Shown: piece after piece, positions 23,713 through 48,485 of the stretch | Layout: each line of letters opens with the position of its first letter | Numbering within the stretch: the first letter of the stretch is position 1 | Source of the DNA: Chromatiales bacterium | GTDB lineage: Bacteria; Pseudomonadota; Gammaproteobacteria; Chromatiales; Chromatiaceae | Reading direction: 5' to 3' | Assembly: GCA_022360905.1 (NCBI GenBank) | Contig: JAKSBX010000065.1 | Coordinates: 24,148-88,147 of the forward strand | Length of the DNA stretch: 64,000 nt | Made by a program: the position numbers and the translations under genes | The notes under the pieces: model-generated | What the model was told of the DNA's origin: nothing | The model's input: the letters and a program-made list of their open reading frames with translations, nothing else | The model's database searches: none

Positions 23713-26700
23713 ATGATAAATGAAAATCAGGGTTACAAAAACAGAGGCTTGCAGTTTGTTGTATTTCTATGCCTCTCATTTCTGGTTACTACGCTGAATG
23801 CAGCCACTTTGACGATCAATGTGGTTGACCAGTCAGGTAACCCAATCACCGATGCGGATTTTGGATTTCGCTGGATGCTGGAGCGGGATAATACCTTCCC
23901 AGTTGATCCAATGAATCCTGGCACAACCGCTGATGAGTTACTATCGCTCAGCTTTCATGCCAGTAATCATGAAATCGGTGTCGGTACAGACGGCAGTTCG
24001 TTGGCAGGTAATGTCGACGGCAGTACGGCAAGCATTACCGACGATATCATCCCTGCAGGCCGCTATTATGTCTCTGTTCATCCTTACAGTGGTTATAGCC
24101 TGAGCGGTACTTCAGTAGAACTCACCGCAACAGATGCTGGTGTGGTTGAGGTCACTGTCCAGCAGTATCCGATCCCTACTGCACAGATCTCGATCTATCT
24201 GTTCGAGGATAAGCATCCGGTGAATGGTGTTCCGGATCTGCCGGAAGAGCAGAATGACGGCACTGTTGATTGGACTCAGTTCAGCCTGTTCCTTGAAGAG
24301 CCGGGCGGTCGCTACGGTGCCGCTGGCGGTCAGGTGATTCAGGACGCTTTCGGTAACTACCTCGGTACCACCTATGACCAGACCTGTGCTACCAGTAACC
24401 CGGTCGGTACTGGCGGTGATACCCCGGGTGGTATGATCAACGCGACCTGTATCGATGCTGACGGCAATCCGGTTATCGATGTACTGGGTGACGGTACCAT
24501 GCAGCCGGATGAGAACGGCTATCTGAATGTTAAAAACCTTGCGCCCGGCAAGTATGGTGTGGTCATCATTCCGCCACCCAACGCCGGTTGGCAGCAGACC
24601 AGCACCATCGAAGGTAGTAAGGTAATCGACGCTTGGGTCAAGGCCAACGAGCCGGCGGTTTTCGTGGAATTCGGTCTTCCAGGTCCCCATGTCTTCATGG
24701 GTTTTGTGCGTCCTTTCGCCGATCTGCCCCCAGCCCAGCCGGGTGAGCAGGTTGCAACGGTTAGCGGTACCGTTACCGACATGCACATGTCCCGTAACCC
24801 GGCTACCACCTTCTTCACTGGCCGTCCTTTCCCACAATGTTGGGTAGCCATCAACCAGGTCGGTGAGGGTGGCGCCCTGGGTCGCGCCGTCTATGCGGAT
24901 GCCTGTGATGGTGACAGCAACTTCTCTGTGGATCTGGTACCGCCAGGTCAGTATCAACTCGCGGTTTGGGATGCCAACCTGGATGTGGTCTTCGCCTCCT
25001 TGTTGTTCACCGTGGATCCAACCGGTGGTTCCTGTAACGGTGGCACCGTGGCCTCCTGTAGTTTTGGTGATGTGCCGGTATTCAACTGGTTCACACGTCT
25101 CAACACCGGCATCTTCAGGGATGATGACCAGGACGGTTTCTGGGACGACACTGAGATCGGTATCGGTCCTGAGAGTCAGGAGACCGTACTGCGCTGGCGT
25201 GACGGCACCATCTATCAGGCCTTCCCGACGGATGGTGATGGTTTAGCACCTTTTGATGAGATCTTCCCCTTCTTCCACTGGCTGGTTGCTGAAGTCAGCT
25301 TCGGTAACAAGAAAGCCACTGGTGCCACTTTTGTTGTGGACGCCGGTGGTGAAGTTCGTCCGGACGGCGGCTGGGCCGATCCTACCTTTGGCGAGCTCAA
25401 CCCTCAGGGGCAGTGTGAAGCTCGCGGCGTAGGCCATAGCGATATCATTATCTCTGCTACCGATCCTCGCGGTGCTATCGGTGATTGTCTCGGTTCTGAT
25501 GACGGTGGTGTTACCTGGGTTGTTGAAAACGCCCGGCAGATCATCAATCCGAATACCGGTAACAATCTGTCTCGCACCGAGACCGGTCTGGTACTCACCC
25601 AGGGCTTTCAGGGCTTTCTGGGGCAGACCAGTGTGATGCAGTTCGGTAAAGTCGACTATGTGATCGATACCCCGTTTGACTTCACCGCATTTCCTCCAAG
25701 AATTTCCGAGTATGTGGGTGAGAACGGCGGTATCTCCGGTATCGTCTACTACGCCACCACCCGTGCGGAAGATGAGCCTCAGTTCGCTGCGGCCGAGGAG
25801 TGGGAGCCTGGGGTACCACGGGTGCAGCTGGCTCTCTATGCGGATGGTGATGTCAACTGTCCTCCATTGACCAACTTTCCAACTGATCCTTGCGACATCG
25901 ACTGGAATGGTGACGGTATCCAGCAGCCGGACGATGGCGTGATCGAGGATATCAATGGTGAAGCCGGCATCCAACGGGCTGACGTGGATAACCACCCCTT
26001 AGGATGGGTGGACTGTTCGCCAGCTTGTGGTCCTGGTCCAGAAGACGTCGATTACAACGGCAATGGTGCTTTTGATCTTGGTGACGCCTTACAGATCACC
26101 CATACCGACAGCTGGGATGACAATCTACCTACCGGTTGTCAGGGTACCAATAACCCACCAGGTGCGGAGGTTGACCCTGCGGTCGATGATCAGCGCTGTT
26201 TCGATGGTCTGCGTAACTTCAACCAGGTTCGCGATGCACTGTTTGATGGTGGGTATGCTTTTGAAGACTACGACCTTGACCATCTGGCGTCGATTCCGGC
26301 TGCTCCCGGTTATAACGCTGCAGTCGTAGCTGCTAATCTCAGCGCTTTCTACGATGGTCTGAATACCGGCTGGCCGGAGTTGAATCTTCCGGGTGCCTGG
26401 CTCATCCCTGGTGACTATCTGGTTGAATCAGCAACACCTGCCGGTTACAAGCTGGTCAGGGAGCACCACAAGAATGTGGACTACGGCGATGAGTACATCC
26501 CGTCGCTGCAGGCCTTCCCCGCGACCTGCGTGGGCGAAGAAGTGATGGTGCCTCCTTATCTCGCAATGGCCACCAAAGACGGTAGCGGTGAAGCGGCTCA
26601 GCTGATCGCTGGTGTTGAAGCCATCGAGGCGCCTTTCGCCGGCGAAATGAGACCGCTCTGTGATCTCAAGCATGTACCGCTCTCAGCCGGTCAGAATGCG

Positions 26701-29700
26701 GCGGCCGAGTTCTTCCTGATGACCGACGTGCCTAAAGCAGGCAACATCTCGGGCATGATCCTCAACGACCTGGCCAACGAGTTCAACCCGAACTCACCCC
26801 AGTTCGGTGAGAAATTCGCACCGCCTCATGTGCCGATAGCGTTCTACGACTGGAACGGTAATGAGATCAATCGTGTCTATGCGGACAAGTATGGTCGCTA
26901 CAACCTGATGGTTGCTTCGACCACCACGGCGAATCTACCGATGCCATCAGGCATGTCGCCGAATATGCTGGTCTCTTGTATGAACGATGCGGGTCCGATT
27001 CCGAATCCGGATTTTACTGGTGCCGCCGGCGACGGTGTTGATGCCAGTGGTAATCCTGAGTTCATTATCGATCCACATTTCGATACTCAGTACAGCCAGT
27101 TCTGTTACACCTTCCAGTACATGCCGGGTACCATCACCTATCTGGATACCCCGGTTGAGCCGGTGGCTGCCTTTGCCGGTCCGGACCAGTTCCCACTGGA
27201 TTGTGAAGCGCCAACACAGACCCCGGCGATCTCCTCCGTGCTGCGTGAGGTGGTTCCAGCCAGCGGCATCGAAGGTCCTTTCGTGGTCGCCGGTACTGGT
27301 GAGAACATCGTCATCAACGCCAAAGGCCTGACCGCTGTTCGTAACCCGGAATGGGCCGAAGGAGATCCTTTAGCTGAACAGAACATTGATCGGGATTACG
27401 GTTTTGGTACCGTTGCCGGTTCGGTTCTTGTTCAGGATCGGAGTGGTAATCCAGTGACTACCCTGGGTGTCTCAACCTGGAGTGACAACGCCATTATCGC
27501 CTCTACTGCTGGTCTGGCAGCCGGTGAATACCAACTGCTGGTAGAGCACAACAACGGTAGTGTCTCTCCCACGGGTATCACACTGACCGTCGGTATCGCT
27601 GAAGGTGTGGGTCTTGGTAATAACAACTCCACCTATAACGTTGTCAATGTACCAAGCGCCGCCTATCCGACTATCCAGGATGCGATCGGCAGTCTCGATA
27701 ACGGCCTTGGTGGTGTCGGCGCTGGTGACCTGATCATTGTCAGGCCTGGTCTCTACAATGAGATGGTGATCATGTGGAAGCCGGTCAAGCTGCAGGGCTT
27801 TGGTGCCGAGACTACAATCATCAATGCCCGACAGACACCGACAGAAAAGATTATCGCCTGGCGTGAACTGGCTGCCGAGCTGGTTGGTACAGGTACAATC
27901 GACCAACTGCCAGGGCAGCTGGTACCCGTACCTTTCTTTGGTGGCGTTCAGGGTGCACTGGGTGCACCGATCTTCCCCACGGAAGAGGGTGCAGGCATCA
28001 TGGTTGCGGGTAAGTGGACCGGTCCCAACAGGTTCCATCGTAACAACCGCAACCGCTATGCCCGTATCGATGGTCTGAGCATCATCGGCGCCAGTACCGG
28101 TGGCGGCATTGTTGCCAACGGCTACACCCGTTTCCTGGTCATCTCCAATAACCGTCTCACCACTAACTCCGGTTTTTATGGTGGCGGTATCCGCATTGGC
28201 CACTCTACTCTGACTCATGAAATTAATGATGAGGATGATGAGTTCTTCAGACGCGGCTATAACAGCTGGCTTGAAGATCAGGCTGAAGACGGTTTCATGG
28301 CCTATGATGACGCCTTCGCCGACAACATGAATATCCATCATAACGAGATCATCAAGAATGGTGGATTGAATGGCGCCGGCGGTGGTATCTCAATCCACAC
28401 TGGTGCTAACAACTATCGTGTTCGCAGCAACTGGATCTGCGGTAACTTCTCCAAAGGTGATGGTGCCGGTATCGGCCATCTGGGACTCTCCCGCGGTGGT
28501 CAGATCCTGGATAACACCATTATCTTCAACGAGAGCTTCAGTCAGACACCAGGCACCAAGCCTGCCGGTGGCGGTATCTTCGTCGGTGGACTGGCCGGAC
28601 TGCGAGTCGATGAAGAGACTGGCCTGACCCTGTCTCCCGGTTCTGGTAACGTCAACATTCTCGGTAACCAGATTCGGGGCAACCTGGCCGGTGCCGGTGA
28701 TGGTGGCGGTATTGCCATGCTGAGTGTCAACGGTGAGGATATCGCACGCGACCCTGATGTCTTCGGCCGCTGGTATCGGGTAATTGTTGCCAACAACATG
28801 CTGAGCAACAATGTCTCAGGTCTTGCTGGCGCCATCTCTCTGTCAGACAGTGTCAAGACCTACATCCGTTACAACACGATTGCGAACAACGACTCCACCG
28901 CAACCGGTTCACAGGCTTTTGGTATCACTGATCCCAATCAGTCTATCGCCAAACCGGCTGGTGTCGTTGCCCGCTACCACAGTGCAACCATGATGTCTCT
29001 CATCGATGATGACGTTGCAGAAGAGTTCCCTGGCTCGCGGTTTGATGAAGATGATGTGCGGAATCGTAGTGAAGAGCGGATGACTTTCTCTGATCCGATC
29101 AGTCTGGTGGATAACATCGTCTACCATAACCGCTCGTTCTACTGGCGGAATACAGATGATCCAACGACCGTGGTACTGGAGAACGGTCTGGTGCCCGCAT
29201 CCTGCGATAACACCACCAACACAAACTGCGATATCACGTTGGTTAACGTGGAGGACTATACCCAGGATCTGGCAGTGCTGAACGGACACACCGTCAATCC
29301 GGTGCATCCGCAGTACGGCCCGATGTTGTTGCGTCCGCTGCGTAATCTGTTGCAGACCGGTGCATCTGCGGTTGCCAACAACACTTATATTGACGGCTAC
29401 TCAACAGCAAACAATGACCCGCACAACTCGCTTGGTCCGGTGTTTGTCAATGGTCGCTTCAATGAGGACCGTAATGCACTGATCTTCCCAGAGTTCAAAG
29501 TGCTGCAGGCAGCCGGTGCATTCGATGAAGGCGGCAACTTCCTGCAGGTCAACTTCGGTCCGCTCTCTCTGCTCGATATCGACGGTAATACTGCAACAGC
29601 GGATGCCCTTATCGATTATCACTTAGAGGCTGGAAGCCCGGCTATCGATGCGGCTGCCGCATCTGCCGGTACTGGCATCTACTCAACCGATATCGATGGT

Positions 29701-29754
29701 GATGCAAGACCGCAGGGCGCCAGAACCGACACCGGTGCCGATGAGAGGTTGTAA
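23713..29754 (+). CDS. Giant secreted protein (2013 aa): SdrD-B/prealbumin-like repeats, IPT/TIG-like domain, right-handed beta-helix, C-terminal choice-of-anchor-Q-like motif
   Basis: Sec signal peptide; GIFRDDDQDGFWDDTEIG and DxDxNG Ca-binding motifs; TIQDAI...GDLIIVRPGLYNE beta-helix entry; terminal DYHLEAGSPAIDAA...DIDGDARPQG...DTGADE. Confidence 0.8.
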   Translation: MINENQGYKNRGLQFVVFLCLSFLVTTLNAATLTINVVDQSGNPITDADFGFRWMLERDNTFPVDPMNPGTTADELLSLSFHASNHEIGVGTDGSSLAGNVDGSTASITDDIIPAGRYYVSVHPYSGYSLSGTSVELTATDAGVVEVTVQQYPIPTAQISIYLFEDKHPVNGVPDLPEEQNDGTVDWTQFSLFLEEPGGRYGAAGGQVIQDAFGNYLGTTYDQTCATSNPVGTGGDTPGGMINATCIDADGNPVIDVLGDGTMQPDENGYLNVKNLAPGKYGVVIIPPPNAGWQQTSTIEGSKVIDAWVKANEPAVFVEFGLPGPHVFMGFVRPFADLPPAQPGEQVATVSGTVTDMHMSRNPATTFFTGRPFPQCWVAINQVGEGGALGRAVYADACDGDSNFSVDLVPPGQYQLAVWDANLDVVFASLLFTVDPTGGSCNGGTVASCSFGDVPVFNWFTRLNTGIFRDDDQDGFWDDTEIGIGPESQETVLRWRDGTIYQAFPTDGDGLAPFDEIFPFFHWLVAEVSFGNKKATGATFVVDAGGEVRPDGGWADPTFGELNPQGQCEARGVGHSDIIISATDPRGAIGDCLGSDDGGVTWVVENARQIINPNTGNNLSRTETGLVLTQGFQGFLGQTSVMQFGKVDYVIDTPFDFTAFPPRISEYVGENGGISGIVYYATTRAEDEPQFAAAEEWEPGVPRVQLALYADGDVNCPPLTNFPTDPCDIDWNGDGIQQPDDGVIEDINGEAGIQRADVDNHPLGWVDCSPACGPGPEDVDYNGNGAFDLGDALQITHTDSWDDNLPTGCQGTNNPPGAEVDPAVDDQRCFDGLRNFNQVRDALFDGGYAFEDYDLDHLASIPAAPGYNAAVVAANLSAFYDGLNTGWPELNLPGAWLIPGDYLVESATPAGYKLVREHHKNVDYGDEYIPSLQAFPATCVGEEVMVPPYLAMATKDGSGEAAQLIAGVEAIEAPFAGEMRPLCDLKHVPLSAGQNAAAEFFLMTDVPKAGNISGMILNDLANEFNPNSPQFGEKFAPPHVPIAFYDWNGNEINRVYADKYGRYNLMVASTTTANLPMPSGMSPNMLVSCMNDAGPIPNPDFTGAAGDGVDASGNPEFIIDPHFDTQYSQFCYTFQYMPGTITYLDTPVEPVAAFAGPDQFPLDCEAPTQTPAISSVLREVVPASGIEGPFVVAGTGENIVINAKGLTAVRNPEWAEGDPLAEQNIDRDYGFGTVAGSVLVQDRSGNPVTTLGVSTWSDNAIIASTAGLAAGEYQLLVEHNNGSVSPTGITLTVGIAEGVGLGNNNSTYNVVNVPSAAYPTIQDAIGSLDNGLGGVGAGDLIIVRPGLYNEMVIMWKPVKLQGFGAETTIINARQTPTEKIIAWRELAAELVGTGTIDQLPGQLVPVPFFGGVQGALGAPIFPTEEGAGIMVAGKWTGPNRFHRNNRNRYARIDGLSIIGASTGGGIVANGYTRFLVISNNRLTTNSGFYGGGIRIGHSTLTHEINDEDDEFFRRGYNSWLEDQAEDGFMAYDDAFADNMNIHHNEIIKNGGLNGAGGGISIHTGANNYRVRSNWICGNFSKGDGAGIGHLGLSRGGQILDNTIIFNESFSQTPGTKPAGGGIFVGGLAGLRVDEETGLTLSPGSGNVNILGNQIRGNLAGAGDGGGIAMLSVNGEDIARDPDVFGRWYRVIVANNMLSNNVSGLAGAISLSDSVKTYIRYNTIANNDSTATGSQAFGITDPNQSIAKPAGVVARYHSATMMSLIDDDVAEEFPGSRFDEDDVRNRSEERMTFSDPISLVDNIVYHNRSFYWRNTDDPTTVVLENGLVPASCDNTTNTNCDITLVNVEDYTQDLAVLNGHTVNPVHPQYGPMLLRPLRNLLQTGASAVANNTYIDGYSTANNDPHNSLGPVFVNGRFNEDRNALIFPEFKVLQAAGAFDEGGNFLQVNFGPLSLLDIDGNTATADALIDYHLEAGSPAIDAAAASAGTGIYSTDIDGDARPQGARTDTGADERL

Positions 29755-29897
29755 TCATGAAAATGATCGACACACATGCAACTGAAAAGCGCCAGCCTGT
29801 CACCATGGACAATATCCTGGTTACAGGGTGGAACAAACTTCGCAAAACCACATTAGGTGAGTCAGGCGCTTACAAAATGACGAGGAGTAAACGCCCT

Positions 29898-31223
29898 ATG
29901 AAACTATTTAGTAAGCAAGCCCTTGCCGGGGCGATCGCCCTGGCACTGTTGGGCATCTCTGGCCAGGCTAGTGCCATTGTCAATGTACAGTGTCCTGGAG
30001 ATAACAACGGTGATGCAGACTGGAATGATGCTGGCGAATCCCAACCAGCGAATACCAAGTGTATACATCTGATTGCAGGCGACAGTTTTGCAAAAATGTC
30101 GGACGGCAACCCCTTGTACACCTTCGGTTTCGGTGATCAGACAGGGACACCCCCCGATCAGGTTATTGGCGAAGGTATCCTCAGTGCCGAGTGGCCAGGA
30201 CCAACCATCGAGTTGGATGAGGGAGATCAGTTCTATCTCAACCTGACCAACGTGGGTACGGTGATTCGGCCCGATCTGTTCGATCCGCACACCGTCCACT
30301 TTCATGGTTTTCCGAATGCGTCTGCAGCATTTGACGGTGTACCCGAGGTCTCGATCAGTATCAACATGGGATCGACACTGACCTACTACTACAACATTGT
30401 CGAGCCTGGCACCTACCTCTATCACTGTCACGTGGAGGCCACCGAGCATATGGAGATGGGCATGTTGGCCAACCTGTTTGTGCATCCGATACAGGACGAA
30501 CTGGGTTGCTTCGATATCGGCGCCGACAACCCTGGCACTGCGGACTACGATCCTGAAAGAGTACCAAATGGCAATTGTGCACCTGCGGTAGGTGATGCGG
30601 GTTACGTTTACAATGACGGTGATGGCACCACGGCATTTGATGTGGAGAAGGCGATCCAGCTTTCAAGCTTTGATCAGGTGTTCCACGATGCCAGCCTGTT
30701 TGTCCAGCCTCTGCCATTTGCTCTACTGGAAGGCAACTATCCACAGCTTAATGGCCGCGGTTATCCCGACACTGTCAATCCAAATGCACTTCCTGCTCCT
30801 GTAGATTCAGTGGATCCAATCACTGGCGGTACCGAGGGTAAGGTCACCGGTACGGTAGGAGAAGAGTTGACTGATGGTGCCATTACTCAGTTTCTGGGTT
30901 CCGATATCAGTGTCAATCAGGGTGAAAAGCTGCTACTGCGTCTCTCCAACGTGGGTCTGGATCGTTTCTGGACCATTACCGCGATGGGCCTGACCATGAA
31001 AGTGGTAGGCACAGGTGCGAAGCACATGCGGGGAACCGACGGCAAGAATATCTATCGTGAGGTTGCCTCCTATAACTTCGGTGGTGGTGAAACAGTCGAT
31101 CTGATCATCGATACCACTGGAGTTGCCCCCGGCACCTACTTCCTCCACGCAACTGAAGTCCATCAGATGAGTAATGCGACCCAGATGGATGGTGGCATGA
31201 TCACTGAGATCGTTGTCAACTGA
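29898..31223 (+). CDS. Two-domain multicopper oxidase subunit A (type 1 Cu site and half trinuclear ligands in domain 1; domain 2 degenerate)
   Basis: HTVHFHG (30288-30308) and YHCHVEATEHMEMGM (HCH at 30423). GAGGAG SD and a signal peptide support the start at 29898; the track ORF starts at 29757. Confidence 0.88.
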   Translation: MKLFSKQALAGAIALALLGISGQASAIVNVQCPGDNNGDADWNDAGESQPANTKCIHLIAGDSFAKMSDGNPLYTFGFGDQTGTPPDQVIGEGILSAEWPGPTIELDEGDQFYLNLTNVGTVIRPDLFDPHTVHFHGFPNASAAFDGVPEVSISINMGSTLTYYYNIVEPGTYLYHCHVEATEHMEMGMLANLFVHPIQDELGCFDIGADNPGTADYDPERVPNGNCAPAVGDAGYVYNDGDGTTAFDVEKAIQLSSFDQVFHDASLFVQPLPFALLEGNYPQLNGRGYPDTVNPNALPAPVDSVDPITGGTEGKVTGTVGEELTDGAITQFLGSDISVNQGEKLLLRLSNVGLDRFWTITAMGLTMKVVGTGAKHMRGTDGKNIYREVASYNFGGGETVDLIIDTTGVAPGTYFLHATEVHQMSNATQMDGGMITEIVVN

Positions 31224-31241
31224 GCCTGGCCGAACTAGGAG

Positions 31242-32681: not shown

Positions 32682-32697
32682 TCGGGAGGGCACAAAC

Positions 32698-35955: not shown

Positions 35956-35976
35956 TTAGTATCATGGCGTGAGGCA

Positions 35977-36009
35977 CCGCCCCCTGTATTTCAGGGGGCG
36001 GATTTTTGT
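35977..36009 (+). terminator. Rho-independent terminator after the giant protein/MCO-ABC genes
   Basis: Perfect 10-bp stem CCGCCCCCTG-tattt-CAGGGGGCGG followed by ATTTTTGTT. Confidence 0.8.
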
Positions 36010-36049
36010 TAAGATCAATCGTCAAACGACACTATTCCTGGGTAGTAAC

Positions 36050-36643
36050 ATGAAAAGTTCACTCTTTTCCAACAAGACGCCTGAGGATGAGAAGGAGAGG
36101 CATCCCGGAGGCAATCCTCTGCTTGTAATCCTGGTCCTGGTGATCTGCACCATGGCCTTTGTTGCATTCACCGCATCCGTTGCCAAGGCAGATAGCAAAG
36201 CTCCGGTACAGACATTAGAAAAGGCGGCCCCCAAGCCCTGGCAACCTCCTGTCGCCAAAGCAACCGTTCCCACCCCCCCTGTGGATCAGAAAACCGCCAA
36301 GCAAATCGCTGAAAAATGGGGGGTTGAGCTACTGAGTCTGCGCCTTACCGCAGCTGGCTATATGATCGATTTCAGATTTCGGGTGCTCGATATCGAGAAG
36401 GCCAAGATCTTTTTCGATCATCGTATCAAACCACACCTCAAGGTTGAGAAATCTAATGCTAAACTACCTATACCCATGGCAGCCAAGGTAGGTGCATTCA
36501 GAGCGACCAACCGGGGTAAGAATATTAAGTCCAATAAGACCTACTATATGGTATTCGGCAATCCTGATGCCCATGTGAAATCAGGAGAAAAGGTTACAAT
36601 GGTGATTGGCGACTTCAAAGCTGAAAATTTAACAGTCAACTGA
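36050..36643 (+). CDS. Hypothetical membrane-anchored periplasmic protein
   Basis: Single N-terminal TM (LLVILVLVICTMAFVAF) and a compact domain with LRLTAAGYMIDFRFRVLD and YYMVFGNP. ATG 36050 is preferred over the track start at 35969. Confidence 0.7.
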   Translation: MKSSLFSNKTPEDEKERHPGGNPLLVILVLVICTMAFVAFTASVAKADSKAPVQTLEKAAPKPWQPPVAKATVPTPPVDQKTAKQIAEKWGVELLSLRLTAAGYMIDFRFRVLDIEKAKIFFDHRIKPHLKVEKSNAKLPIPMAAKVGAFRATNRGKNIKSNKTYYMVFGNPDAHVKSGEKVTMVIGDFKAENLTVN

Positions 36644-36665
36644 TCCGTTGACTCGAGAAGGAAAT

Positions 36666-39600
36666 ATGCAATATAGAAATCATCTGCTTGGTTTTCTAAC
36701 AATACTCGGACTGGCCTCTTCATTTGAATCCCATGCGGTAGTGACCGTCTATTGCTGCGATGCAACAGCCGAGGCTCAATTTATCCAGGATCTTTCGAAT
36801 CTACCATCTATCTCGACAGACATCACTAAAGAGAGCTTTGAAGGCAGCGACTGGGACGGCACTCGCACTACCGGTGTTCAGAGTGTGACTTCCCAAGGCA
36901 TTACCTGGGCGGGCAGTTCCACGGAATCCTCTTTTGTACGTACTTCCACCAGTGGTGGTGACGTGCATGAAGGCAGCTATCTGATGTTCCCAGTGGACAA
37001 CAGAAACGATCACCTGATACCCGATAAATACACGCTGACCGCCAGTGGTACCACGCTGTATGGTGTTGGCGGCTGGTTCCGCAGTAGTACCGGGGCAAAG
37101 ATCGGTTTTACCACCAACGGCTCGGCTCCGGTCGATTTCACCGGTGCAGACGCCACAGTGTCCGACTGGACCTTTCTCGGTTTCATCGATGATGCCGGTT
37201 TTACCACGGTACTGGTAGAGGCTGTGGATGAAGGGGGAGATGAGGTCAATATCTTCTTCTCGGATGATTTCACACTGGGTGCCCAATCCGGCGCATTCCC
37301 CGGACAGAAACTGCAGTTCAGCAGCGCCACCTACAGTGTGGCTGAGAATGCCGCTACGCTTCAGATCACCGTGGAACGCACCGGTGGTACCAGTGGCACA
37401 CTCTCCGCTGACTATGCGAGCGATAGTGAAAGCGGTACAGCGAGCGCCAATCAGGACTACACGCCGGTTTCGGGAACACTCAATTTTGCTGATGGTGAGA
37501 GCAGTCAGCAGATTACCATCGATATTCTGGATGACACCGTCTTCGAGGATAGTGAGAGCTTTACGATCAATCTGAGCGGTCTCAATATCGGCGCGCAAAA
37601 CAGTGCCACGGTGACCATCACCGATAACGATGCGCCGGCGGTGGGACAGGTGCAGTTCAGCAGCAGCAACTATACCTTCAGTGAAGGAGACGGCAGCGTT
37701 ACCATCACCGTACAGCGGGATGGTGGCAGTTCCGGCAGCGGTTCTGTGGATTACGCCATGAGCGATGGGACAGCAACGGCAGGCAGCGATTACACAGCCG
37801 CCTCCGGTAGCCTGTCATTTATCGATGGTCAGATCAGCAGCAGCGTGACTCTGGACATCACAGATGATGCAACGGCTGAAGGTACAGAGACGTTGCTGAT
37901 CACCCTATCGAATCCGGTATCGGTATCGCTGGCCGCCAGGGATGTTGCAGAGGTCTCTATTACCGATAACGAGCCGGTTTCGAGCTCGGGAAGTCTGCAG
38001 TTCAGCGGTTCAAACTATACCGCCGCGGAGAGCGATACATCGATACAGGTGCCCGTGACCAGGACGAATGGGAGCAGTGGGGCCGTTTCCATCGTCTGCT
38101 CTACCAGCGATCTTACAGCCACGGCAGGGTCCGACTATACGGCTACTCAAGCAACGGTCAATTTTGCTGATGGTGAACTCACCAGCAACTGTGTGATACC
38201 TATTCTGGATGACAGCAGCTACGAAACCGATGAGACTCTGATGGTCACGCTTGCAACGCCCTCTGGTGGTGCCGTCCTTGGCACACCGGCATCAGCGGTA
38301 GTGACCCTGAGCAGCGATGACTCGATACCCGCCATGGGTAGTCTGCAGTTCAGCCTCTCGGAGTATCAATTGAATGAGGATGGCGGTACAGCCACGATTG
38401 CAGTTTCCCGCTCAGGAGGTAGCAGTGGTGCCGTCGGGGTCAGCTACGCTTCCAGCGATTCCACGGCAACGGCTGGTGAGGATTACACCGCTGCATCCGG
38501 CAGCTTGAGTTTTGCCGATGGCGTAACCAGCGGATCATTCCAGGTATCACTCCTCGATGACAGCGAATACGAGGGGGATGAGCGGGTCACGCTGACGTTG
38601 AGCAATCCAACCGGTGGCGCCGTGCTGGGGCAGACCTCTCAGGTTGATTTGGTGATCAGCGAAGACGATCTGGCACCGGCAACCGGCCTGCTGGTTTTCA
38701 GTGCCAGCGACATTGGCGCGGACGAGGCGGATGGTCTGATTGAGGTAACGGTGGAACGTCAGGGTGGCAGTAGTGGCGCTGCACAAATCAACTATGCAAC
38801 TGCAGATGGCACTGCAATTGCTGGTATCGATTACCAGGTGGCCAGTGGTACCCTTATGTTTGCCGATGGTGAGCTGTCGAAGACATTTGAAGTCACCATC
38901 ATTGATGATGGTCTATTCGAGGGCACAGAGACCATCAATCTGATTCTCTCGGATGCGGTTGGCGCATCACTGGGTGAGACCGCTACGGCAACCATCAGCG
39001 TCACGGATGATGACGAGCCGCCTGCGGCCGGTTCCCTGATCTTCTCCAATTCAGCCATCACAGCGGCTGAGGATGGTGGCGACGTCACCGTTACCGTTTC
39101 ACGCAGTGGCGGTTCAACCGGTGCCGTATCGGTTGATTACAATACGGCGGATGGCACTGCGATTGCCTCTTCAGACTATACCTACACCTCCGGCAGCATC
39201 AGTTTTGCCGATGGCGATGCAGCCGATAAGACCTTTACTGTCCCACTGTTGAACGATTCTGCCGTGGAATCCGATGAGACCATCTTGTTACAGATGAGTA
39301 ACTTTCAGGGTGGGGCGGTAGCCGGTGATCAGAGCAGCGGTCAGATTACCATCACCGATGATGATGTACTCAACGCATCTACCGTAATCGGTTTCACCAT
39401 CACCAGCCTTACTGTGAATGAATCTTCAGTCAATGCGAGCTTCACTATCGATCGTAGTGTCGTTCTGACCGGCACGGTCAGTGTCGACCTGAGTGTTGGT
39501 ACATCAACCGCTGTTGCCGGTAGCGATTTCAATGTCACCACAGGAACTCTGCAGTTTGCCAGTGGCGAGACGCAAAAGACAATCAATGTGGAGATCATTG

Positions 39601-39881
39601 ACAATACGGTTGTTGACGGAGACCGGACAATTACCTTTGTCCTGGGTAATGCGTCCGGTACCGCGACCATCGATAGCAACAGTGGCAGCTTCACGCTGAC
39701 CATCTCCGATGATGATCAGGATGGCGGCAGCGATGGAGATGACAATGGCGGCGGTGGAGGTGGCGGATCCGCTGATTTGTTGCTTCTGCTGGGCTTGATG
39801 ATCCTATTCTTTGGTTATCTGCAGCTGCAGAATGCCCGCCAGGCTCGAGCCTTCGCAAAACGTCGTGTCGAAGAGCAGTAA
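36666..39881 (+). CDS. Calx-beta repeat surface protein (7 repeats) with C-terminal GlyGly-CTERM sorting signal
   Basis: Signal peptide; seven LQFS..Y...E...ITV.R.GG...DY...SGTL.FADG repeats; C-terminus GGGGGGSADLLLLLGLMILFFGYL...KRR. Confidence 0.88.
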   Translation: MQYRNHLLGFLTILGLASSFESHAVVTVYCCDATAEAQFIQDLSNLPSISTDITKESFEGSDWDGTRTTGVQSVTSQGITWAGSSTESSFVRTSTSGGDVHEGSYLMFPVDNRNDHLIPDKYTLTASGTTLYGVGGWFRSSTGAKIGFTTNGSAPVDFTGADATVSDWTFLGFIDDAGFTTVLVEAVDEGGDEVNIFFSDDFTLGAQSGAFPGQKLQFSSATYSVAENAATLQITVERTGGTSGTLSADYASDSESGTASANQDYTPVSGTLNFADGESSQQITIDILDDTVFEDSESFTINLSGLNIGAQNSATVTITDNDAPAVGQVQFSSSNYTFSEGDGSVTITVQRDGGSSGSGSVDYAMSDGTATAGSDYTAASGSLSFIDGQISSSVTLDITDDATAEGTETLLITLSNPVSVSLAARDVAEVSITDNEPVSSSGSLQFSGSNYTAAESDTSIQVPVTRTNGSSGAVSIVCSTSDLTATAGSDYTATQATVNFADGELTSNCVIPILDDSSYETDETLMVTLATPSGGAVLGTPASAVVTLSSDDSIPAMGSLQFSLSEYQLNEDGGTATIAVSRSGGSSGAVGVSYASSDSTATAGEDYTAASGSLSFADGVTSGSFQVSLLDDSEYEGDERVTLTLSNPTGGAVLGQTSQVDLVISEDDLAPATGLLVFSASDIGADEADGLIEVTVERQGGSSGAAQINYATADGTAIAGIDYQVASGTLMFADGELSKTFEVTIIDDGLFEGTETINLILSDAVGASLGETATATISVTDDDEPPAAGSLIFSNSAITAAEDGGDVTVTVSRSGGSTGAVSVDYNTADGTAIASSDYTYTSGSISFADGDAADKTFTVPLLNDSAVESDETILLQMSNFQGGAVAGDQSSGQITITDDDVLNASTVIGFTITSLTVNESSVNASFTIDRSVVLTGTVSVDLSVGTSTAVAGSDFNVTTGTLQFASGETQKTINVEIIDNTVVDGDRTITFVLGNASGTATIDSNSGSFTLTISDDDQDGGSDGDDNGGGGGGGSADLLLLLGLMILFFGYLQLQNARQARAFAKRRVEEQ

Positions 39882-39899
39882 CATAAAAGGGTACATACG

Positions 39900-40700
39900 A
39901 TGGATAAGAGAGCATGGATTAACGATTCGATTGAAAAGTGTTTCAGTGGCTTGCTAAAGGCATCTGTACTTTCGGTTGCCATGTTCGCCACTTCCGGAGT
40001 CAATGCCGCCGAATTGCCAAGCATTGTGAAATCCAACGCTGATAAACCCCTTGGTCCACAGTTCAAACTCGACTGTGTCACCAAGCCGGGCAAGCCTCAG
40101 AGTCTCGGTGATCGTTTTAAAGTAGCCATGAACATGCATGACCATTCCCAGCACAGTGGTCACGATGAACATGCCCATCACCGTGCCATGATGGAGGACA
40201 AGTCGTACAAGGTAAATCATGCCAGCTATCAGATACCGGATGTAAATCTGACCTCTCACAAAGGGGAGCAACAGCAACTGGCGGATATCCTGAACAATGA
40301 CAAGCCGGTGATGCTGAACTTCATCTTCACAACCTGTACCACCATCTGCCCGGTTCTGTCGGCCAGTTTTCACCAGGTACAAGAGATTCTGGGTGATGAG
40401 GTAGATAGCGTTTCCATGGTATCGATCACCATCGATCCGGACTACGACACGCCTGAACAGTTGATGAAATATTCGAAAAGATTCAAGGCAGGCGAACAGT
40501 GGAATTTTTATACCGGCAGCTACAAAGATGTGGTTACCGTAGAAAAAGCCTTCGATATCTTCCGTGGTTCAAAAATGAATCACGAACCGATTACCCTGAT
40601 TAGGGATCAAGGTGGACAGCACTGGACGCGTATCAATGGTCTGGCCAGTGCAGAAGATATTGTTAAGGAGTACAAAAAGATCGTAGCGGCTGCAAATTGA
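39900..40700 (+). CDS. SCO1/SenC family copper chaperone with His/Met-rich N-terminal extension
   Basis: FIFTTCTTICP (CxxxC), MNHEP conserved His, ITIDPDYDTPE, and MNMHDHSQHSGHDEHAHHRAMM. Confidence 0.92.
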   Translation: MDKRAWINDSIEKCFSGLLKASVLSVAMFATSGVNAAELPSIVKSNADKPLGPQFKLDCVTKPGKPQSLGDRFKVAMNMHDHSQHSGHDEHAHHRAMMEDKSYKVNHASYQIPDVNLTSHKGEQQQLADILNNDKPVMLNFIFTTCTTICPVLSASFHQVQEILGDEVDSVSMVSITIDPDYDTPEQLMKYSKRFKAGEQWNFYTGSYKDVVTVEKAFDIFRGSKMNHEPITLIRDQGGQHWTRINGLASAEDIVKEYKKIVAAAN

Positions 40701-42331
40701 TGCAAAAGCTTAACAAAAAGATTACGGCGTTAATGCTATTCGCCGCTCTGGTCATATTCTCTACAGCCTCGCAGAATGAAGTGGAGGTTGATTCCAAGGC
40801 CTACTCAACAGGTAAATCGCTCTACAAACAGGGTATTTTACCGAATGGCGAACTGGTTAAAGCGACCATTCAGGGCGATATCTCTGTGGAAGGTGATCAG
40901 TTAATCTGTGAGACCTGTCACCGCAAGAGCGGCTTGGGTTCCACCGAAGGCCAGCAGGTGGTCCCGGCTGTTGCAGGTAGCGTGCTTTTCAAACCTTTGA
41001 AGCTGCCCACCAGCAAACCGCCCGAGCCGCCGGTATATCGCGAAGCCTATACCCGAGAGACCTTAATGGCAGCGATCAGAGACGGCGTCGATGCCAATGG
41101 GCAACCATTGGATCCTTTCATGCCCAGATATCAGATCGATGATGAGGCGTTGGACGGTTTAATGGCCTATGTCAGTACCCTGTCCAATACCCCGTCTCCG
41201 GGCGTAACCGAAGAGACCATCCATTTCGCAACCATCGTCTTGTCCTCAAACAAAAAGGAGGAGAACAAGGCATTGATCGATGTGATGGAGACTTATGTCG
41301 AACAAAAAAATATAGAAACAAGATATGAGACGAAAAGGGCACAGAACGCACCTTGGCATAAGGAGTGGATGTTCAAGCCCTATCGAAAGTGGCAGATACA
41401 TATTTGGGAACTGACAGGTGCCGAAGAGACCTGGCCGGAACAACTCAGTACCTACTATTCCAATCAACCGGTTTTCGCCCTGGTCAATGGTTTGGTTCCT
41501 ACTGGCTGGAATCGGGTCAGTGAGTTCTGTGAGGGGCATGGCATACCCTGTCTGTTTCCTACAACGCAACAGCCGGTTATCCGTGATGATAATTACTACA
41601 CCATCTATCTGAATAAGGGTGTCACACATGAGGCTGAGGCGGTTGCTTCCTATATCAAGAAAAACCGTCCTGCCGCTCGAGTGGTACAGGTTTATGATGA
41701 TTCTGAAACACTGAGTACTGTCTCATCCAATGCGCTCATAGATGAGCTTAACAAGGGTGGGATCAGCGTAGATACTGTTTCTCTGGGGCAACTTGGAGGA
41801 AAAGAATCGAAAGCTTTTCTGAGCGGCCAAGACGATACGGTTGTATTGTGGCTGGACAAAGTGAAATCAGAGCAACTCTTCAATAGTAGGCAGCTGAATA
41901 GCGCAGAGTTGATCATGCTTTCCAGCCAGTATTATGGAACTGACACCAAGCGGATCCCCCAGGATTTGACGAATTCTGTTCTGTTGATTCACAGTTCTGA
42001 AATGCCTGATAAACTGAGCAGGTTACTGATTCGCTCAACGGGTTGGTTTAGAGCAAAACGCATCTATAATAAAGAGGAGAAAGAGATTCAGGCCAATGCC
42101 TACTTCGCTTTGAAGGTACTTGGTGATGCGGTGAAGCATATACGTGGCTACTTCTATCGTGACTATATGATTGAAAAGATTGAACACATGATTGATGACT
42201 TACCTTATACCTCGATCTTTCCGCGCCTCAGTATGGCGCCAGATCAAAGGTTTGCATCTCGGGGCTTCTATGTGGCTAAAACTGACGGAAAAGGAGGAAT
42301 TGTTAATCTCACCGGTTGGATAACTCCCTGA
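40697..42331 (+). CDS. Monoheme c-type cytochrome fused to a type I periplasmic binding-protein-like domain
   Basis: Signal peptide, CETCH heme motif, distal FMPRY Met, then PVFALVNG...FCEGHGIPCLFP periplasmic-binding-like region. Confidence 0.75.
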   Translation: MMQKLNKKITALMLFAALVIFSTASQNEVEVDSKAYSTGKSLYKQGILPNGELVKATIQGDISVEGDQLICETCHRKSGLGSTEGQQVVPAVAGSVLFKPLKLPTSKPPEPPVYREAYTRETLMAAIRDGVDANGQPLDPFMPRYQIDDEALDGLMAYVSTLSNTPSPGVTEETIHFATIVLSSNKKEENKALIDVMETYVEQKNIETRYETKRAQNAPWHKEWMFKPYRKWQIHIWELTGAEETWPEQLSTYYSNQPVFALVNGLVPTGWNRVSEFCEGHGIPCLFPTTQQPVIRDDNYYTIYLNKGVTHEAEAVASYIKKNRPAARVVQVYDDSETLSTVSSNALIDELNKGGISVDTVSLGQLGGKESKAFLSGQDDTVVLWLDKVKSEQLFNSRQLNSAELIMLSSQYYGTDTKRIPQDLTNSVLLIHSSEMPDKLSRLLIRSTGWFRAKRIYNKEEKEIQANAYFALKVLGDAVKHIRGYFYRDYMIEKIEHMIDDLPYTSIFPRLSMAPDQRFASRGFYVAKTDGKGGIVNLTGWITP

Positions 42332-48458: not shown

Positions 48459-48485
48459 GTGTGCCCCTATGCTTGCTATTGCCGG

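What the first reader, a model, noticed from the sequence alone, without database searches (positions are those of the whole stretch)
23713..42331. Self-contained extracellular copper-oxidase system: giant scaffold, three split MCO subunits, surface adhesin, SCO chaperone and cytochrome
Seen: eight co-oriented, tightly packed genes, all with export signals or a TM anchor. They encode a 2013-aa Ca-motif-rich beta-helix/Ig protein, three paralogous cupredoxin-pair proteins, an unknown periplasmic protein, a GlyGly-CTERM Calx-beta protein, an SCO chaperone and a monoheme cytochrome c fusion. A regulator and two kinases bracket the set. Established: SCO proteins load copper, MCOs couple substrate oxidation to O2 reduction, and bacterial Mn oxidases such as MnxG, McoA and MofA are exported MCOs with accessory partners. 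Inference: this is a dedicated cell-surface metal (Mn/Fe) or small-molecule oxidase complex. I know of no characterized system with this composition, although similar uncharacterized clusters may exist in other genomes.
Basis: partly seen in the sequence, partly recalled or inferred. Interest (0 to 1): 0.93.

Follow-up and report, generated by a model that had tools for sequence, protein, structure and literature searches.

The report
Split three-subunit multicopper oxidase operon
A sulfur-oxidising clam symbiont carries a widely conserved operon for a copper oxidase whose oxygen-reducing copper centre can apparently only be built from two different subunits; it also encodes a copper-free third paralogue, a 2,000-residue partner protein and dedicated helpers, and no member of this system has been characterised biochemically.

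Summary
The eight co-oriented genes are real. The organism is a Candidatus Thiodiazotropha. The core giant-A-B-C-g5 sits in the same order wherever the flank of 80 related loci is long enough: B 72/72, C 69/69, g5 62/62, giant 70/70. These loci span Gammaproteobacteria, Betaproteobacteria, Verrucomicrobia, Lentisphaerae, Kiritimatiellia and others.

A, B and C are ancient paralogues, each a separate clade. Only A domain 1 (type 1 site plus four trinuclear His) and B domain 2 (four His, Cys replaced by Ser) keep copper ligands, at 99-100% conservation. C keeps none. This implies one catalytic centre at an A/B interface, probably in an A-B-C ring. The giant protein is fused to A in 11 loci and to C in Sulfurimicrobium lacus, so it is probably a subunit.

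A protease follows g5 in most other loci. Here its orthologue lies 13 kb away (55137-58040). SCO and a MofC-like cytochrome c are proteobacterial additions. The Calx-beta protein is lineage-specific.

A cluster of the same gene order was noted in Sideroxydans lithotrophicus ES-1 (Slit_1812-1818) and is more abundant on magnetite. I found no paper describing the split active site or the giant as a partner. Substrate, location and stoichiometry are untested. The structure prediction of the interface failed.

The parts
21534..22412 (+). Soluble histidine kinase (HisKA_3 + HATPase_c); probable regulator of the operon
   Evidence: Pfam. A homologue lies upstream of the giant gene in 36 related loci, and the same HK/RR pair precedes the cluster in L084.
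22485..23153 (-). NarL/GerE-type response regulator, divergent from the giant gene
   Evidence: Pfam Response_reg + GerE. A homologue lies near the cluster in 41 loci.
23713..29754 (+). Giant protein (2013 aa): signal peptide, Ig-like/SdrD_B/PL4-domain-II-like modules, a large conserved middle region of unknown fold, a right-handed beta-helix region and a choice-of-anchor Q tail. Inferred subunit or scaffold of the oxidase.
   Evidence: Conserved over its whole length (45% mean column identity in 23 orthologues). Present in 70/70 loci with enough flank. Fused to A in 11 loci and to C in Sulfurimicrobium lacus. 533 representatives at 50% identity with E<=1e-30. No PDB relative by profile.
29757..31223 (+). 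MCO subunit A (probable start 29898). Domain 1 carries the only type 1 Cu site (H178, C224, H231, M236) and half of the trinuclear ligands (H181, H183, H223, H225). Domain 2 has no ligands.
   Evidence: Pfam Cu-oxidase_3/2/1. Best PDB match is 3G5W, a type C two-domain MCO, at 8e-13. All eight ligands are 100% conserved in 79-81 orthologues and in the ~30%-identical S. lacus protein.
31242..32681 (+). MCO subunit B. Domain 1 is ligand-free. Domain 2 carries H307-x-x-H310-x-H312 and H448-S449-H450, the other half of the trinuclear ligands, with no type 1 Cys.
   Evidence: 99-100% conservation, with Ser449 also kept at about 97-100% (76 of 78 rows, the other 2 gaps). The same residues are kept in S. 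lacus.
32695..35955 (+). Subunit C: an N-terminal copper-free cupredoxin pair (~30-400), then a cadherin/Big_9 stalk and a C-terminal domain
   Evidence: hhalign to B E 9e-37 and to A E 2e-13. No conserved His or Cys. Ligand columns are occupied by T/V/P, H/S/G, Q/L, H/V/Q and N/P/S. Present in 69/69 loci. The tail length varies (327-1113 aa).
35977..36001 (+). Terminator-like hairpin (10-bp stem, 9 GC, T-rich tail) between C and g5; possible attenuator that splits the operon into two expression units
   Evidence: Pattern match only.
36047..36643 (+). g5: small membrane-anchored or secreted protein with a conserved ~115-aa helix + beta-sandwich domain and no conserved metal ligands; fifth core component, role unknown (small subunit or assembly factor)
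   Evidence: Present in 62/62 loci. Alignment. AF2 pLDDT 86.5. No PDB relative by profile or by fold (best E 6e-3, TM 0.43).
36648..39881 (+). g6: seven Calx-beta repeats with a Gly-run/TM/basic C-terminus (GlyGly-CTERM-like); lineage-specific accessory protein
   Evidence: Pfam. Found only in Sedimenticolaceae-like and tubeworm-symbiont loci. The tail is not recovered by an HMM. A rhombosortase is present in the genome.
39900..40700 (+). SCO1/SenC copper chaperone (C146-x3-C150, H228)
   Evidence: Pfam 1e-19. The motif is conserved in 39 orthologues. Present in 36/57 loci with enough flank.
40697..42331 (+). MofC-like protein: monohaem cytochrome c (C71-x2-C74-H75, M142) fused to a type I periplasmic-binding-protein fold
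   Evidence: Pfam. Motif conserved. Present in 33/57 loci. The same architecture is described for MofC-like genes beside MofA/OmpB and the ES-1 tandem MCOs (PMC5566968).
42371..43762 (+). Membrane HisKA_3 sensor with no detectable HATPase domain
   Evidence: Pfam.
55137..58040 (-). S8 subtilase with three Calx-beta repeats: orthologue of the protease that directly follows g5 in other loci, displaced here by ~13 kb, next to what another first-reader note (e1-5266498) reads as T2SS genes (gspD/E/F; not checked here by any family search)
   Evidence: 40-48% identity over the protease domain to the in-cluster S8 genes of 20+ loci. It is the best hit in its own genome at E 1.7e-160, against 7.5e-14 for the next S8. 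The post-g5 gene is Peptidase_S8 in 19/39 loci and Peptidase_C25 in 7/39.

Best explanation
The operon encodes a hetero-oligomeric multicopper oxidase.

Sequence of events as I read it:
1. All products are exported by Sec signal peptides (read by eye).
2. The SCO1/SenC protein supplies copper (inferred).
3. A, B and C are two-domain cupredoxin paralogues of the kind that normally form homotrimers, with a trinuclear Cu centre at each domain-1/domain-2 subunit interface.
4. Here only A domain 1 (type 1 Cu plus four His) and B domain 2 (four His, no Cys) keep ligands. One type 1/trinuclear unit can therefore form only at an A.d1/B.d2 interface.
5. The other two interfaces of a ring (B.d1/C.d2 and C.d1/A.d2) are ligand-free on both sides. 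The parsimonious assembly is a 1:1:1 A-B-C pseudo-six-domain ring with a single O2-reducing site, analogous to ceruloplasmin but made of three chains (inferred).
6. The 2013-aa giant protein binds this ring, because it is fused to A or to C in other lineages (shown by sequence). It probably positions the ring on a surface or polymer (inferred).
7. g5 is a fifth obligatory small component.
8. A dedicated S8 (or C25) protease matures the complex (inferred).
9. A c-type cytochrome is the recurrent redox partner: MofC-like here, MtrC-like elsewhere.

The enzyme oxidises an extracytoplasmic electron donor at the type 1 Cu of A and reduces O2 to water. The most likely donor is mineral-bound or dissolved Fe(II)/Mn(II), or a reduced cytochrome that collects such electrons.

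My odds: about 0.75 for the split-site heteromer, about 0.35 for a metal or mineral substrate.
For: - Ligand complementarity: A H178/H181/H183/H223/C224/H225/H231/M236 are 100% conserved; B H307/H310/H312/H448/H450 are 99-100% and S449 about 97-100% (76 of 78 rows, 2 gaps). The matching columns in the other domains hold non-ligands, and C has no conserved His or Cys.
- The same pattern holds in the ~30%-identical Sulfurimicrobium lacus subfamily.
- A canonical homotrimeric type C enzyme (3G5W) has all four motifs in one chain (alignment). The trinuclear site of two-domain MCOs lies between two subunits (PMC11761707).
- A, B and C are each monophyletic, with support 100/100, 98/97 and 100/97. 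They always co-occur in the order A-B-C: 72/72 and 69/69.
- Giant::A single ORFs occur in 11 loci and a C::giant ORF in S. lacus. Giant is present in 70/70 loci and g5 in 62/62.
- A protease follows g5 in 26/39 loci, drawn from two unrelated families, and the orthologue here is displaced.
- The SCO CxxxC/H motif and the cytochrome CxxCH/M motif are conserved. MtrC/MtrF-like multihaem cytochromes occupy the same neighbourhood in L066 and L084.
- ES-1 proteins Slit_1816-1818 are more abundant on magnetite than on Fe(II)-citrate and are predicted extracellular (PMC12016527; PMC5566968).
Against: - There is no direct structural or biochemical evidence. AF2 of an A-linker-B read-through fusion with a 29-row paired alignment gave pLDDT 55 and pTM 0.43, and no coordinates could be inspected.
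- No natural A::B fusion was found among 496-1577-aa proteins.
- An A-B heterodimer or another stoichiometry is not excluded.
- The substrate inference rests on one proteomic correlation in a ~30%-identical subfamily, and I could not retrieve the ES-1 sequences themselves.
- The module also occurs in lineages that I take, from general knowledge only, to be mostly anaerobic (Kiritimatiellia, Lentisphaerae, Syntrophaceae MAGs). No tool result here addresses their oxygen relations; if true, an O2-dependent enzyme is less obviously useful there.
- SCO and the cytochrome are absent from the PVC loci within 10 kb.
Confidence: 0.6

Rival explanations
1. An extracytoplasmic cytochrome c:O2 oxidoreductase. 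The physiological donor to the type 1 Cu is the co-encoded cytochrome (MofC-like, or MtrC-like in other lineages). The complex acts as an outer terminal oxidase or O2 scavenger for electrons exported from the cell, not as a direct metal oxidase.
For: A c-type cytochrome recurs in the cluster in two unrelated forms. The module occurs in lineages I take to be microaerophilic or anaerobic (my own knowledge, not a tool result), where O2 removal would help.
Against: No cytochrome lies within 10 kb in most PVC loci. The giant scaffold, adhesin-like tails and protease are not explained. No such MCO function has been established.
Confidence: 0.15
2. A copper-homeostasis system. The complex is a cuprous oxidase of the CueO/PcoA/CopA type that detoxifies Cu(I) in the envelope, with SCO as a buffer or chaperone.
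For: The best NCBIfam hit of A is the CopA family (TIGR01480), E 6e-15 but far below the cut-off. A has an H-M-E-M-G-M motif at the type 1 site. A CusA/CzcA pump lies directly upstream in L064.
Against: No CopB/PcoB, CopC/D or CopRS/CusRS genes are present. The regulators are of the HisKA_3/NarL type. The RND pump in this window is not of the heavy-metal type. A 2000-aa partner, a pseudo-subunit and a protease are not features of known copper-resistance MCOs.
Confidence: 0.1
3. An oxidase acting on an organic or polymeric extracellular substrate (phenolics, humics or a polysaccharide-linked group). The giant beta-helix/PL4-like protein acts as the substrate-binding module.
For: The giant family hits Beta_helix, PL4 domain II, SdrD_B and CarboxypepD_reg. 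C tails carry dockerin or cadherin modules. The module is common in PVC lineages that I know, from memory rather than any tool result, as polysaccharide degraders.
Against: The hosts here are, by my own knowledge of these taxa, chemolithoautotrophic sulfur and iron oxidisers (taxon names). No carbohydrate-active enzymes or uptake genes are in the cluster. The ES-1 response is to a mineral.
Confidence: 0.1
4. No trinuclear centre forms. A is a type 1-only electron-transfer cupredoxin protein and B binds a different metal with its His quartet. The set is a surface redox or adhesion assembly rather than an O2-reducing oxidase.
For: The interface is untested. B retains extra invariant residues (H238, H307, H398, E452, E454) that a plain half-site does not require.
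Against: A keeps the exact HxH and HCH spacing of multicopper oxidases, and B keeps the exact HxH...HxH counterpart. Both have been held at 99-100% since before the phyla-level spread. This is hard to explain without a shared trinuclear site.
Confidence: 0.05

Closest known systems
Sideroxydans lithotrophicus ES-1 cluster Slit_1812-1818 (He et al. 2017, PMC5566968; Keffer et al. 2025, PMC12016527)
   Same: Same gene order: two MCO-motif proteins, a larger third cupredoxin protein without motifs, small hypothetical protein(s), SCO1/SenC and a cytochrome c-PBP (MofC-like). The products are predicted extracellular. The Sulfurimicrobium lacus cluster matches that description, and the relatives of its A protein are the taxa listed for ES-1. 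It aligns to every window protein at ~30-44% identity and keeps all ligand positions.
   Different: In that subfamily the giant protein is fused to C (2739 aa). Here it is a separate first gene. Identity is only ~30%. The window adds a Calx-beta protein and has its protease displaced. The ES-1 sequences themselves could not be fetched, so the link rests on the published description and on close relatives. ES-1 has only expression data, with no biochemistry, and the papers do not describe the split active site.
Homotrimeric two-domain multicopper oxidases, type C (for example Nitrosomonas europaea 3G5W, mgLAC 2ZWN)
   Same: Best structural relatives of A (E 8e-13 to 2e-11). Same two-cupredoxin chain, type 1 Cu in domain 1, and the trinuclear site between subunits.
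   Different: Those enzymes carry all four His motifs in one chain and form three identical active sites. Here the motifs are divided between two genes, a third gene has none, and at most one site per ring is possible.
Six-domain MCOs (ceruloplasmin, hephaestin)
   Same: A pseudo-threefold ring of six cupredoxin domains with a single trinuclear centre (own knowledge).
   Different: They are single polypeptides with several type 1 sites. This system would be three chains with one type 1 site. No sequence relationship beyond the superfamily was tested.
Bacillus Mnx complex (MnxG with MnxE3F3)
   Same: A multi-subunit MCO with small accessory subunits of unknown fold, working on an extracellular metal (own knowledge; cited within PMC12016527).
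   Different: In Mnx the whole catalytic centre lies in one chain (MnxG). g5 shows no detectable similarity to any solved protein. MnxE/F were not compared directly.
mofABC (Leptothrix) and the ompB cluster (Geobacter sulfurreducens GSU1394-1398)
   Same: An extracellular MCO gene accompanied by a MofC-like cytochrome c-PBP protein and, in Geobacter, a SCO1/SenC chaperone (PMC5566968).
   Different: MofA and OmpB are single large MCOs. [quoted passage not shown]

Membership tests
Multicopper oxidase superfamily (catalytically competent) | Type 1 site ligands His-Cys-His(-Met) in one cupredoxin domain | tested here: met
   A H178, C224, H231 and M236 are 100% conserved. They are absent from B and C.
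Multicopper oxidase superfamily (catalytically competent) | Eight His in four HxH motifs for the trinuclear Cu cluster | tested here: met
   Met only in trans: A H181/H183 and H223/H225, plus B H310/H312 and H448/H450. No single chain has more than four.
Homotrimeric two-domain MCO (types A/B/C) | Each chain supplies both a domain-1 and a domain-2 half-site, so identical subunits form the trinuclear centre | tested here: not met
   A domain 2 has W/T/P and a gap at the ligand columns. B domain 1 has V/V/T and H/S/G. 3G5W has all the motifs.
Homotrimeric two-domain MCO (types A/B/C) | Trimeric ring quaternary structure | tested here: inconclusive
   The AF2 model of the A-B fusion was of low confidence. 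No multimer tool was available.
SCO1/SenC copper chaperone | Thioredoxin fold with CxxxC and a distal His | tested here: met
   PF02630, E 1e-19, above the cut-off. C146, C150 and H228 are conserved in 39 orthologues.
MofC-like cytochrome c-PBP | Monohaem CxxCH cytochrome c domain fused to a periplasmic binding-protein domain, encoded beside an exported MCO | tested here: met
   Pfam Cytochrom_C and Peripla_BP_6. C71/C74/H75/M142 are conserved. The architecture is as described in PMC5566968. No direct alignment to MofC was possible.
GlyGly-CTERM/rhombosortase substrate (g6) | C-terminal Gly-Gly motif, TM helix and basic tail matching the sorting-signal model, with a rhombosortase in the genome | tested here: inconclusive
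   The pattern is visible, but there is only an E 0.37 match to the tail of the SVAGG model. Rhombosortase TIGR03902 is present above the cut-off.
ES-1-type tandem-cupredoxin cluster (Slit_1812-1818) | A-B-C order, a third protein without motifs, small hypothetical protein(s), SCO and a cytochrome | tested here: met
   The gene order and content match the published description. Homology to the S. lacus representative of that subfamily is shown for every component.
ES-1-type tandem-cupredoxin cluster (Slit_1812-1818) | Direct sequence orthology to the Slit_ proteins; induction on solid Fe(II) | not testable with these tools
   The ES-1 sequences were not retrievable.
Copper-containing nitrite reductase (NirK) | Type 2 Cu site from His-x4-His and His-Cys in domain 1 plus one His of the neighbouring domain 2; curated model score | tested here: not met
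   TIGR02376 scores 30.7 and 27.6 bits against a cut-off of 296. The motif spacing is the MCO type, HxH/HCH.

The most novel reading that the evidence does not exclude
This would be the first multicopper oxidase whose trinuclear copper centre is obligatorily assembled from two different gene products. A carries the type 1 site and half of the cluster. B carries the other half. A copper-free paralogue C closes the ring. The ring is bound to a ~2000-residue beta-helix protein and matured by a dedicated protease. It would be an ancient, horizontally spread extracellular oxidase module (more than 500 clusters at 50% identity) used by sulfur- and iron-oxidising bacteria and by PVC bacteria to oxidise solid or dissolved metals.
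Probability: 0.55. Interest if true: 0.8.

Novelty: new variant of a known kind. Interest (0 to 1): 0.7.

Why it matters
Two-domain multicopper oxidases are regarded as homotrimers and as the evolutionary precursors of three- and six-domain enzymes. A natural heterotrimer with one active site would be a missing intermediate in that history. It would also be a new way to build a copper oxidase.

The module is widespread. The giant protein alone has 533 representatives at 50% identity with E<=1e-30. It occurs in chemosynthetic animal symbionts and in iron and sulfur oxidisers, and also in genera I know to be routinely cultured and genetically manipulated (Paraburkholderia, Cupriavidus, Collimonas, Vogesella; tractability is my own knowledge, not a tool result).

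The only functional hint is higher abundance on magnetite in Sideroxydans. That ties the module to the open question of how bacteria oxidise solid Fe(II) minerals. The split-site prediction gives a concrete design for expression: A, B, C and probably the giant protein and g5 must be co-produced. This may explain why no member has been characterised.

Tried and rejected
1. AF2 on an A-linker-B read-through translation (the two genes share a frame) with a 29-row paired alignment gave pLDDT 55 and pTM 0.43. No coordinates were obtainable, so the interface test failed.
2. A search for natural A::B fusions using the fused query found none. Maximum query coverage was 57%.
3. Giant protein: the profile search against PDB returned only a spurious LpxA-like hit. 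Pfam on the window copy alone gives only weak Ig-like hits.
4. g5: no Pfam or NCBIfam family and no PDB profile hit. The confident AF2 model (pLDDT 86.5) has no significant Foldseek match.
5. GlyGly-CTERM was not confirmed by an HMM.
7. The ES-1 sequences could not be fetched directly. An order-level genome search found Sulfurimicrobium lacus as a stand-in.
8. The NirK reading was rejected on scores and motif spacing.
9. The reading of the RND pump at 45408-49607 as a copper pump was rejected because it is not CusA/CzcA type.
10. Literature searches for a heterotrimeric two-domain MCO found only a proteolytic alpha-alpha-alpha' form of Nmar_1354.

Full report
**What is there**

The window holds eight co-oriented, closely spaced ORFs between 23713 and 42331.
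- The giant protein (2013 aa) gives weak Pfam/NCBIfam hits to prealbumin-like Ig folds and a choice-of-anchor Q tail.
- A (488 aa) and B (479 aa) match multicopper-oxidase domains.
- C (about 1086 aa from a start near 32695) shows cadherin/Big_9 repeats.
- g5 is a 224-aa ORF with no family.
- g6 has seven Calx-beta repeats.
- g7 is a SCO1/SenC protein.
- g8 is a cytochrome c fused to a Peripla_BP_6 fold.

A HisKA_3 kinase and a NarL-type regulator lie upstream. A HisKA_3 protein with no HATPase hit lies downstream. N-terminal signal peptides or anchors are visible in all eight translations, judged by eye.

The closest relatives place the window in Candidatus Thiodiazotropha, a lucinid-clam sulfur-oxidising symbiont.

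**Conservation**

Eighty loci encoding a relative of A were fetched. They come from Thiodiazotropha, other Sedimenticolaceae, Chromatiaceae, tubeworm symbionts, Thiobacillus, Sulfuricella, Rhodoferax, Methylococcaceae, Syntrophaceae, Thermoanaerobaculia, Verrucomicrobia, Lentisphaerae and Kiritimatiellia.

Wherever the flank is long enough, the order giant-A-B-C-g5 is kept:
- B in 72/72 loci
- C in 69/69
- g5 in 62/62
- giant in 70/70

SCO (36/57) and the cytochrome-PBP protein (33/57) follow in Proteobacteria only. The Calx-beta protein is confined to close relatives and tubeworm symbionts.

Within the window's own GTDB family the module is patchy: 21 of 151 genomes and 14 of 83 genera, with some copies broken. 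The N-terminal 1200 residues of the giant protein alone find 533 representatives at 50% identity with E<=1e-30. Public databases name these proteins only generically.

**The three cupredoxin proteins**

Profile-profile comparison shows the N-terminal ~390 residues of C are homologous to B (prob 99.9, E 9e-37) and to A (E 2e-13). A against B gives E 3e-54.

In a maximum-likelihood tree of 72 sequences, A, B and C each form one clade (support 100/100, 98/97, 100/97). These clades include the PVC and the distant betaproteobacterial members, so the triplication predates the spread of the module.

The copper ligands are divided as follows:

| Domain | Ligand columns |
|---|---|
| A domain 1 | H178-x-x-H181-x-H183 and H223-C224-H225...H231...M236, all 100% conserved |
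| A domain 2 | W/T/P and a gap |
| B domain 1 | V/V/T and H/S/G |
| B domain 2 | H307-x-x-H310-x-H312 and H448-S449-H450 (His 99-100%; Ser449 in 76 of 78 rows, 2 gaps) |
| C (both domains) | no conserved His or Cys |

Every one of these positions is unchanged in the ~30%-identical Sulfurimicrobium lacus proteins. So are the extra invariant residues A H310 and B H238, H398, E452 and E454.

The nearest solved relative of A is the homotrimeric type C two-domain oxidase 3G5W (E 8e-13). It has all four motifs in one chain. In such enzymes the trinuclear site lies between two subunits (PMC11761707).

It follows that neither A nor B alone can build a trinuclear centre, while an A.d1/B.d2 interface can build exactly one. 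In a three-membered ring the two remaining interfaces (B.d1/C.d2 and C.d1/A.d2) would be ligand-free on both sides. That is the pattern expected for a unique A-B-C heterotrimer and not for A2B or AB2 rings, which would leave orphan half-sites. This is an inference from sequence, not a demonstrated structure.

**The giant protein is part of the enzyme**

In 11 loci (Verrucomicrobia, Lentisphaerae, Kiritimatiellia and unclassified MAGs), giant and A are a single ORF of 2150-2870 aa.

In a complete betaproteobacterial genome found by an order-level search, identified as Sulfurimicrobium lacus, the order is A, B and then a 2739-aa protein. That protein consists of the C cupredoxin pair, cadherin repeats and the full giant sequence. 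It is followed by g5, a cytochrome-PBP protein and SCO. Representatives in which the giant match begins 500-740 residues into the protein show that this C::giant form is common.

The giant protein is conserved over its whole length, with 45% mean column identity across phyla. Its orthologues hit SdrD_B (19/23), PL4 domain II (16/23), Beta_helix (9/23) and CarboxypepD_reg (9/23). It has no detectable solved relative.

**Other components**

g5 carries a conserved ~115-residue domain with no conserved metal ligand. It folds confidently into a helix plus beta-sandwich (pLDDT 86.5) and has no significant structural neighbour.

The gene right after g5 in other loci is a protease: Peptidase_S8 in 19 of 39 and Peptidase_C25 in 7 of 39, the latter in PVC-type loci. 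In this window that position is taken by the Calx-beta protein. The S8-Calx subtilase at 55137-58040 (- strand) lies next to genes that another first-reader note reads as type II secretion genes, which I did not check. It is 40-48% identical to the in-cluster proteases. It is by far the best match in its own genome, at E 1.7e-160 against 7.5e-14 for the next S8.

SCO keeps CxxxC and His. The cytochrome keeps CxxCH and Met. In two other variants (L066, L084) an MtrC/MtrF-like multihaem cytochrome sits in the cluster instead. The same HisKA_3/NarL pair accompanies many loci.

**Comparison with the literature**

He et al. [quoted passage not shown] They predicted the products to be extracellular, found them not homologous to known metal oxidoreductases, and assigned no function. 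The same paper describes MofC-like proteins as a cytochrome c plus a periplasmic-binding domain, found next to MofA (Leptothrix) and OmpB (Geobacter, with SCO).

Keffer et al. 2025 (PMC12016527) found Slit_1816-1818 more abundant on magnetite than on Fe(II)-citrate. They described Slit_1816 as larger, without MCO motifs and with adhesin- and polysaccharide-lyase-like domains. They listed relatives in Paraburkholderia, Ralstonia, Anaeromyxobacter and Steroidobacteraceae.

The S. lacus cluster fits that description. The close relatives of its A protein are Gallionellaceae, Sulfuricella, Paraburkholderia, Burkholderia, Cupriavidus and Collimonas. I therefore take the window's operon to be a distant variant (~30% identity) of the ES-1-type cluster, with the giant module as a separate gene.

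I could not fetch the ES-1 sequences themselves. Searches for a heteromeric two-domain oxidase found nothing comparable.

**Mechanism and its limits**

The best reading is a Sec-exported, SCO-metallated hetero-oligomeric multicopper oxidase with one type 1/trinuclear unit at the A/B interface. It would be held on a large beta-helix/Ig scaffold, matured by a dedicated protease, and partnered with a c-type cytochrome. It would oxidise an extracytoplasmic donor with O2.

A metal or mineral donor is favoured only by the ES-1 proteomics and by the company of MofC/MtrC-type cytochromes.

Rival readings are:
- an outer cytochrome c oxidase
- a cuprous oxidase for copper homeostasis
- an oxidase of organic polymers
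- a non-oxidase redox assembly

The interface test failed: AF2 of the read-through A-B fusion gave pLDDT 55. No natural A::B fusion exists among the proteins searched. Read data were unavailable. Location, stoichiometry, co-transcription and substrate therefore remain open.

**Verdict**

The enzyme class is known.

Three points appear new:
- the split, single-site heteromeric design
- the obligatory giant partner
- the breadth of the module

All three are directly testable.

Noticed in passing
window 35977-36001 (+): A strong terminator-like hairpin (10-bp stem, 9 GC, then ATTTTTG) lies 22 nt after the stop of C and inside the long ORF call of g5. It suggests attenuation between giant-A-B-C and g5-g8, and a g5 start at ATG 36047.
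   Followed up: partly
window 55137-58040 (-): The S8-Calx-beta subtilase is the orthologue of the protease that sits directly after g5 in other loci. In this genome it has moved ~13 kb, and a protease-less Calx-beta protein occupies its place. Another first-reader note reads the adjacent genes as gspD/E/F; I did not check that.
   Followed up: yes
L084 10001-12370; also L072 and P0154-P0200: In Kiritimatiellia, Planctomycetes and related MAGs, the A subunit carries an extra N-terminal ~430-aa PAP2/VCPO_2nd (vanadium-haloperoxidase-like) domain. A separate giant gene, B, C, g5 and S8 are still present.
   Followed up: partly
L066 16746-19322; L084 17153-18991: MtrC/MtrF-like multihaem cytochromes (9 CxxCH in L084) are encoded just after the protease in two variants of the cluster. 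This hints at a link to extracellular electron transfer.
   Followed up: partly
L064, L066, L071, L076 (gene after g5): PVC-type loci carry a gingipain-like Peptidase_C25 where Proteobacteria carry Peptidase_S8. Two unrelated proteases occupy the same slot, and the C25 loci checked (L064, L066, L071, L076) are all among the loci with giant::A fusions.
   Followed up: partly
L064 488-3778: A CusA/CzcA-type heavy-metal RND pump (1103 bits, above the cut-off) lies directly upstream of the giant::A gene in one Verrucomicrobia locus. The RND pump in the window (45408-49607) is not of that type.
   Followed up: partly
window 42371-43762: A membrane HisKA_3 protein with no detectable HATPase domain lies next to the operon, while the upstream kinase (21534-22412) has the ATPase domain but no sensor or TM region.
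   Followed up: no
B residues H238, H307, H398, E452, E454; A residue H310: These extra residues are invariant from Thiodiazotropha to Sulfurimicrobium, and a plain half trinuclear site does not require them. H307 sits where a type 1 His would be, although the Cys is Ser. A second metal- or substrate-binding site is possible.
   Followed up: no
G545:C9:30026-31013 and G525:C18:212212-213343: Some family members carry interrupted copies of A (in-frame stops or a split ORF), which indicates ongoing loss of the module.
   Followed up: no
window 29757-29898: The annotated ATG of A adds ~47 residues that most orthologues lack. The likely start is M48 (29898), which leaves ~140 nt between giant and A.
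   Followed up: partly
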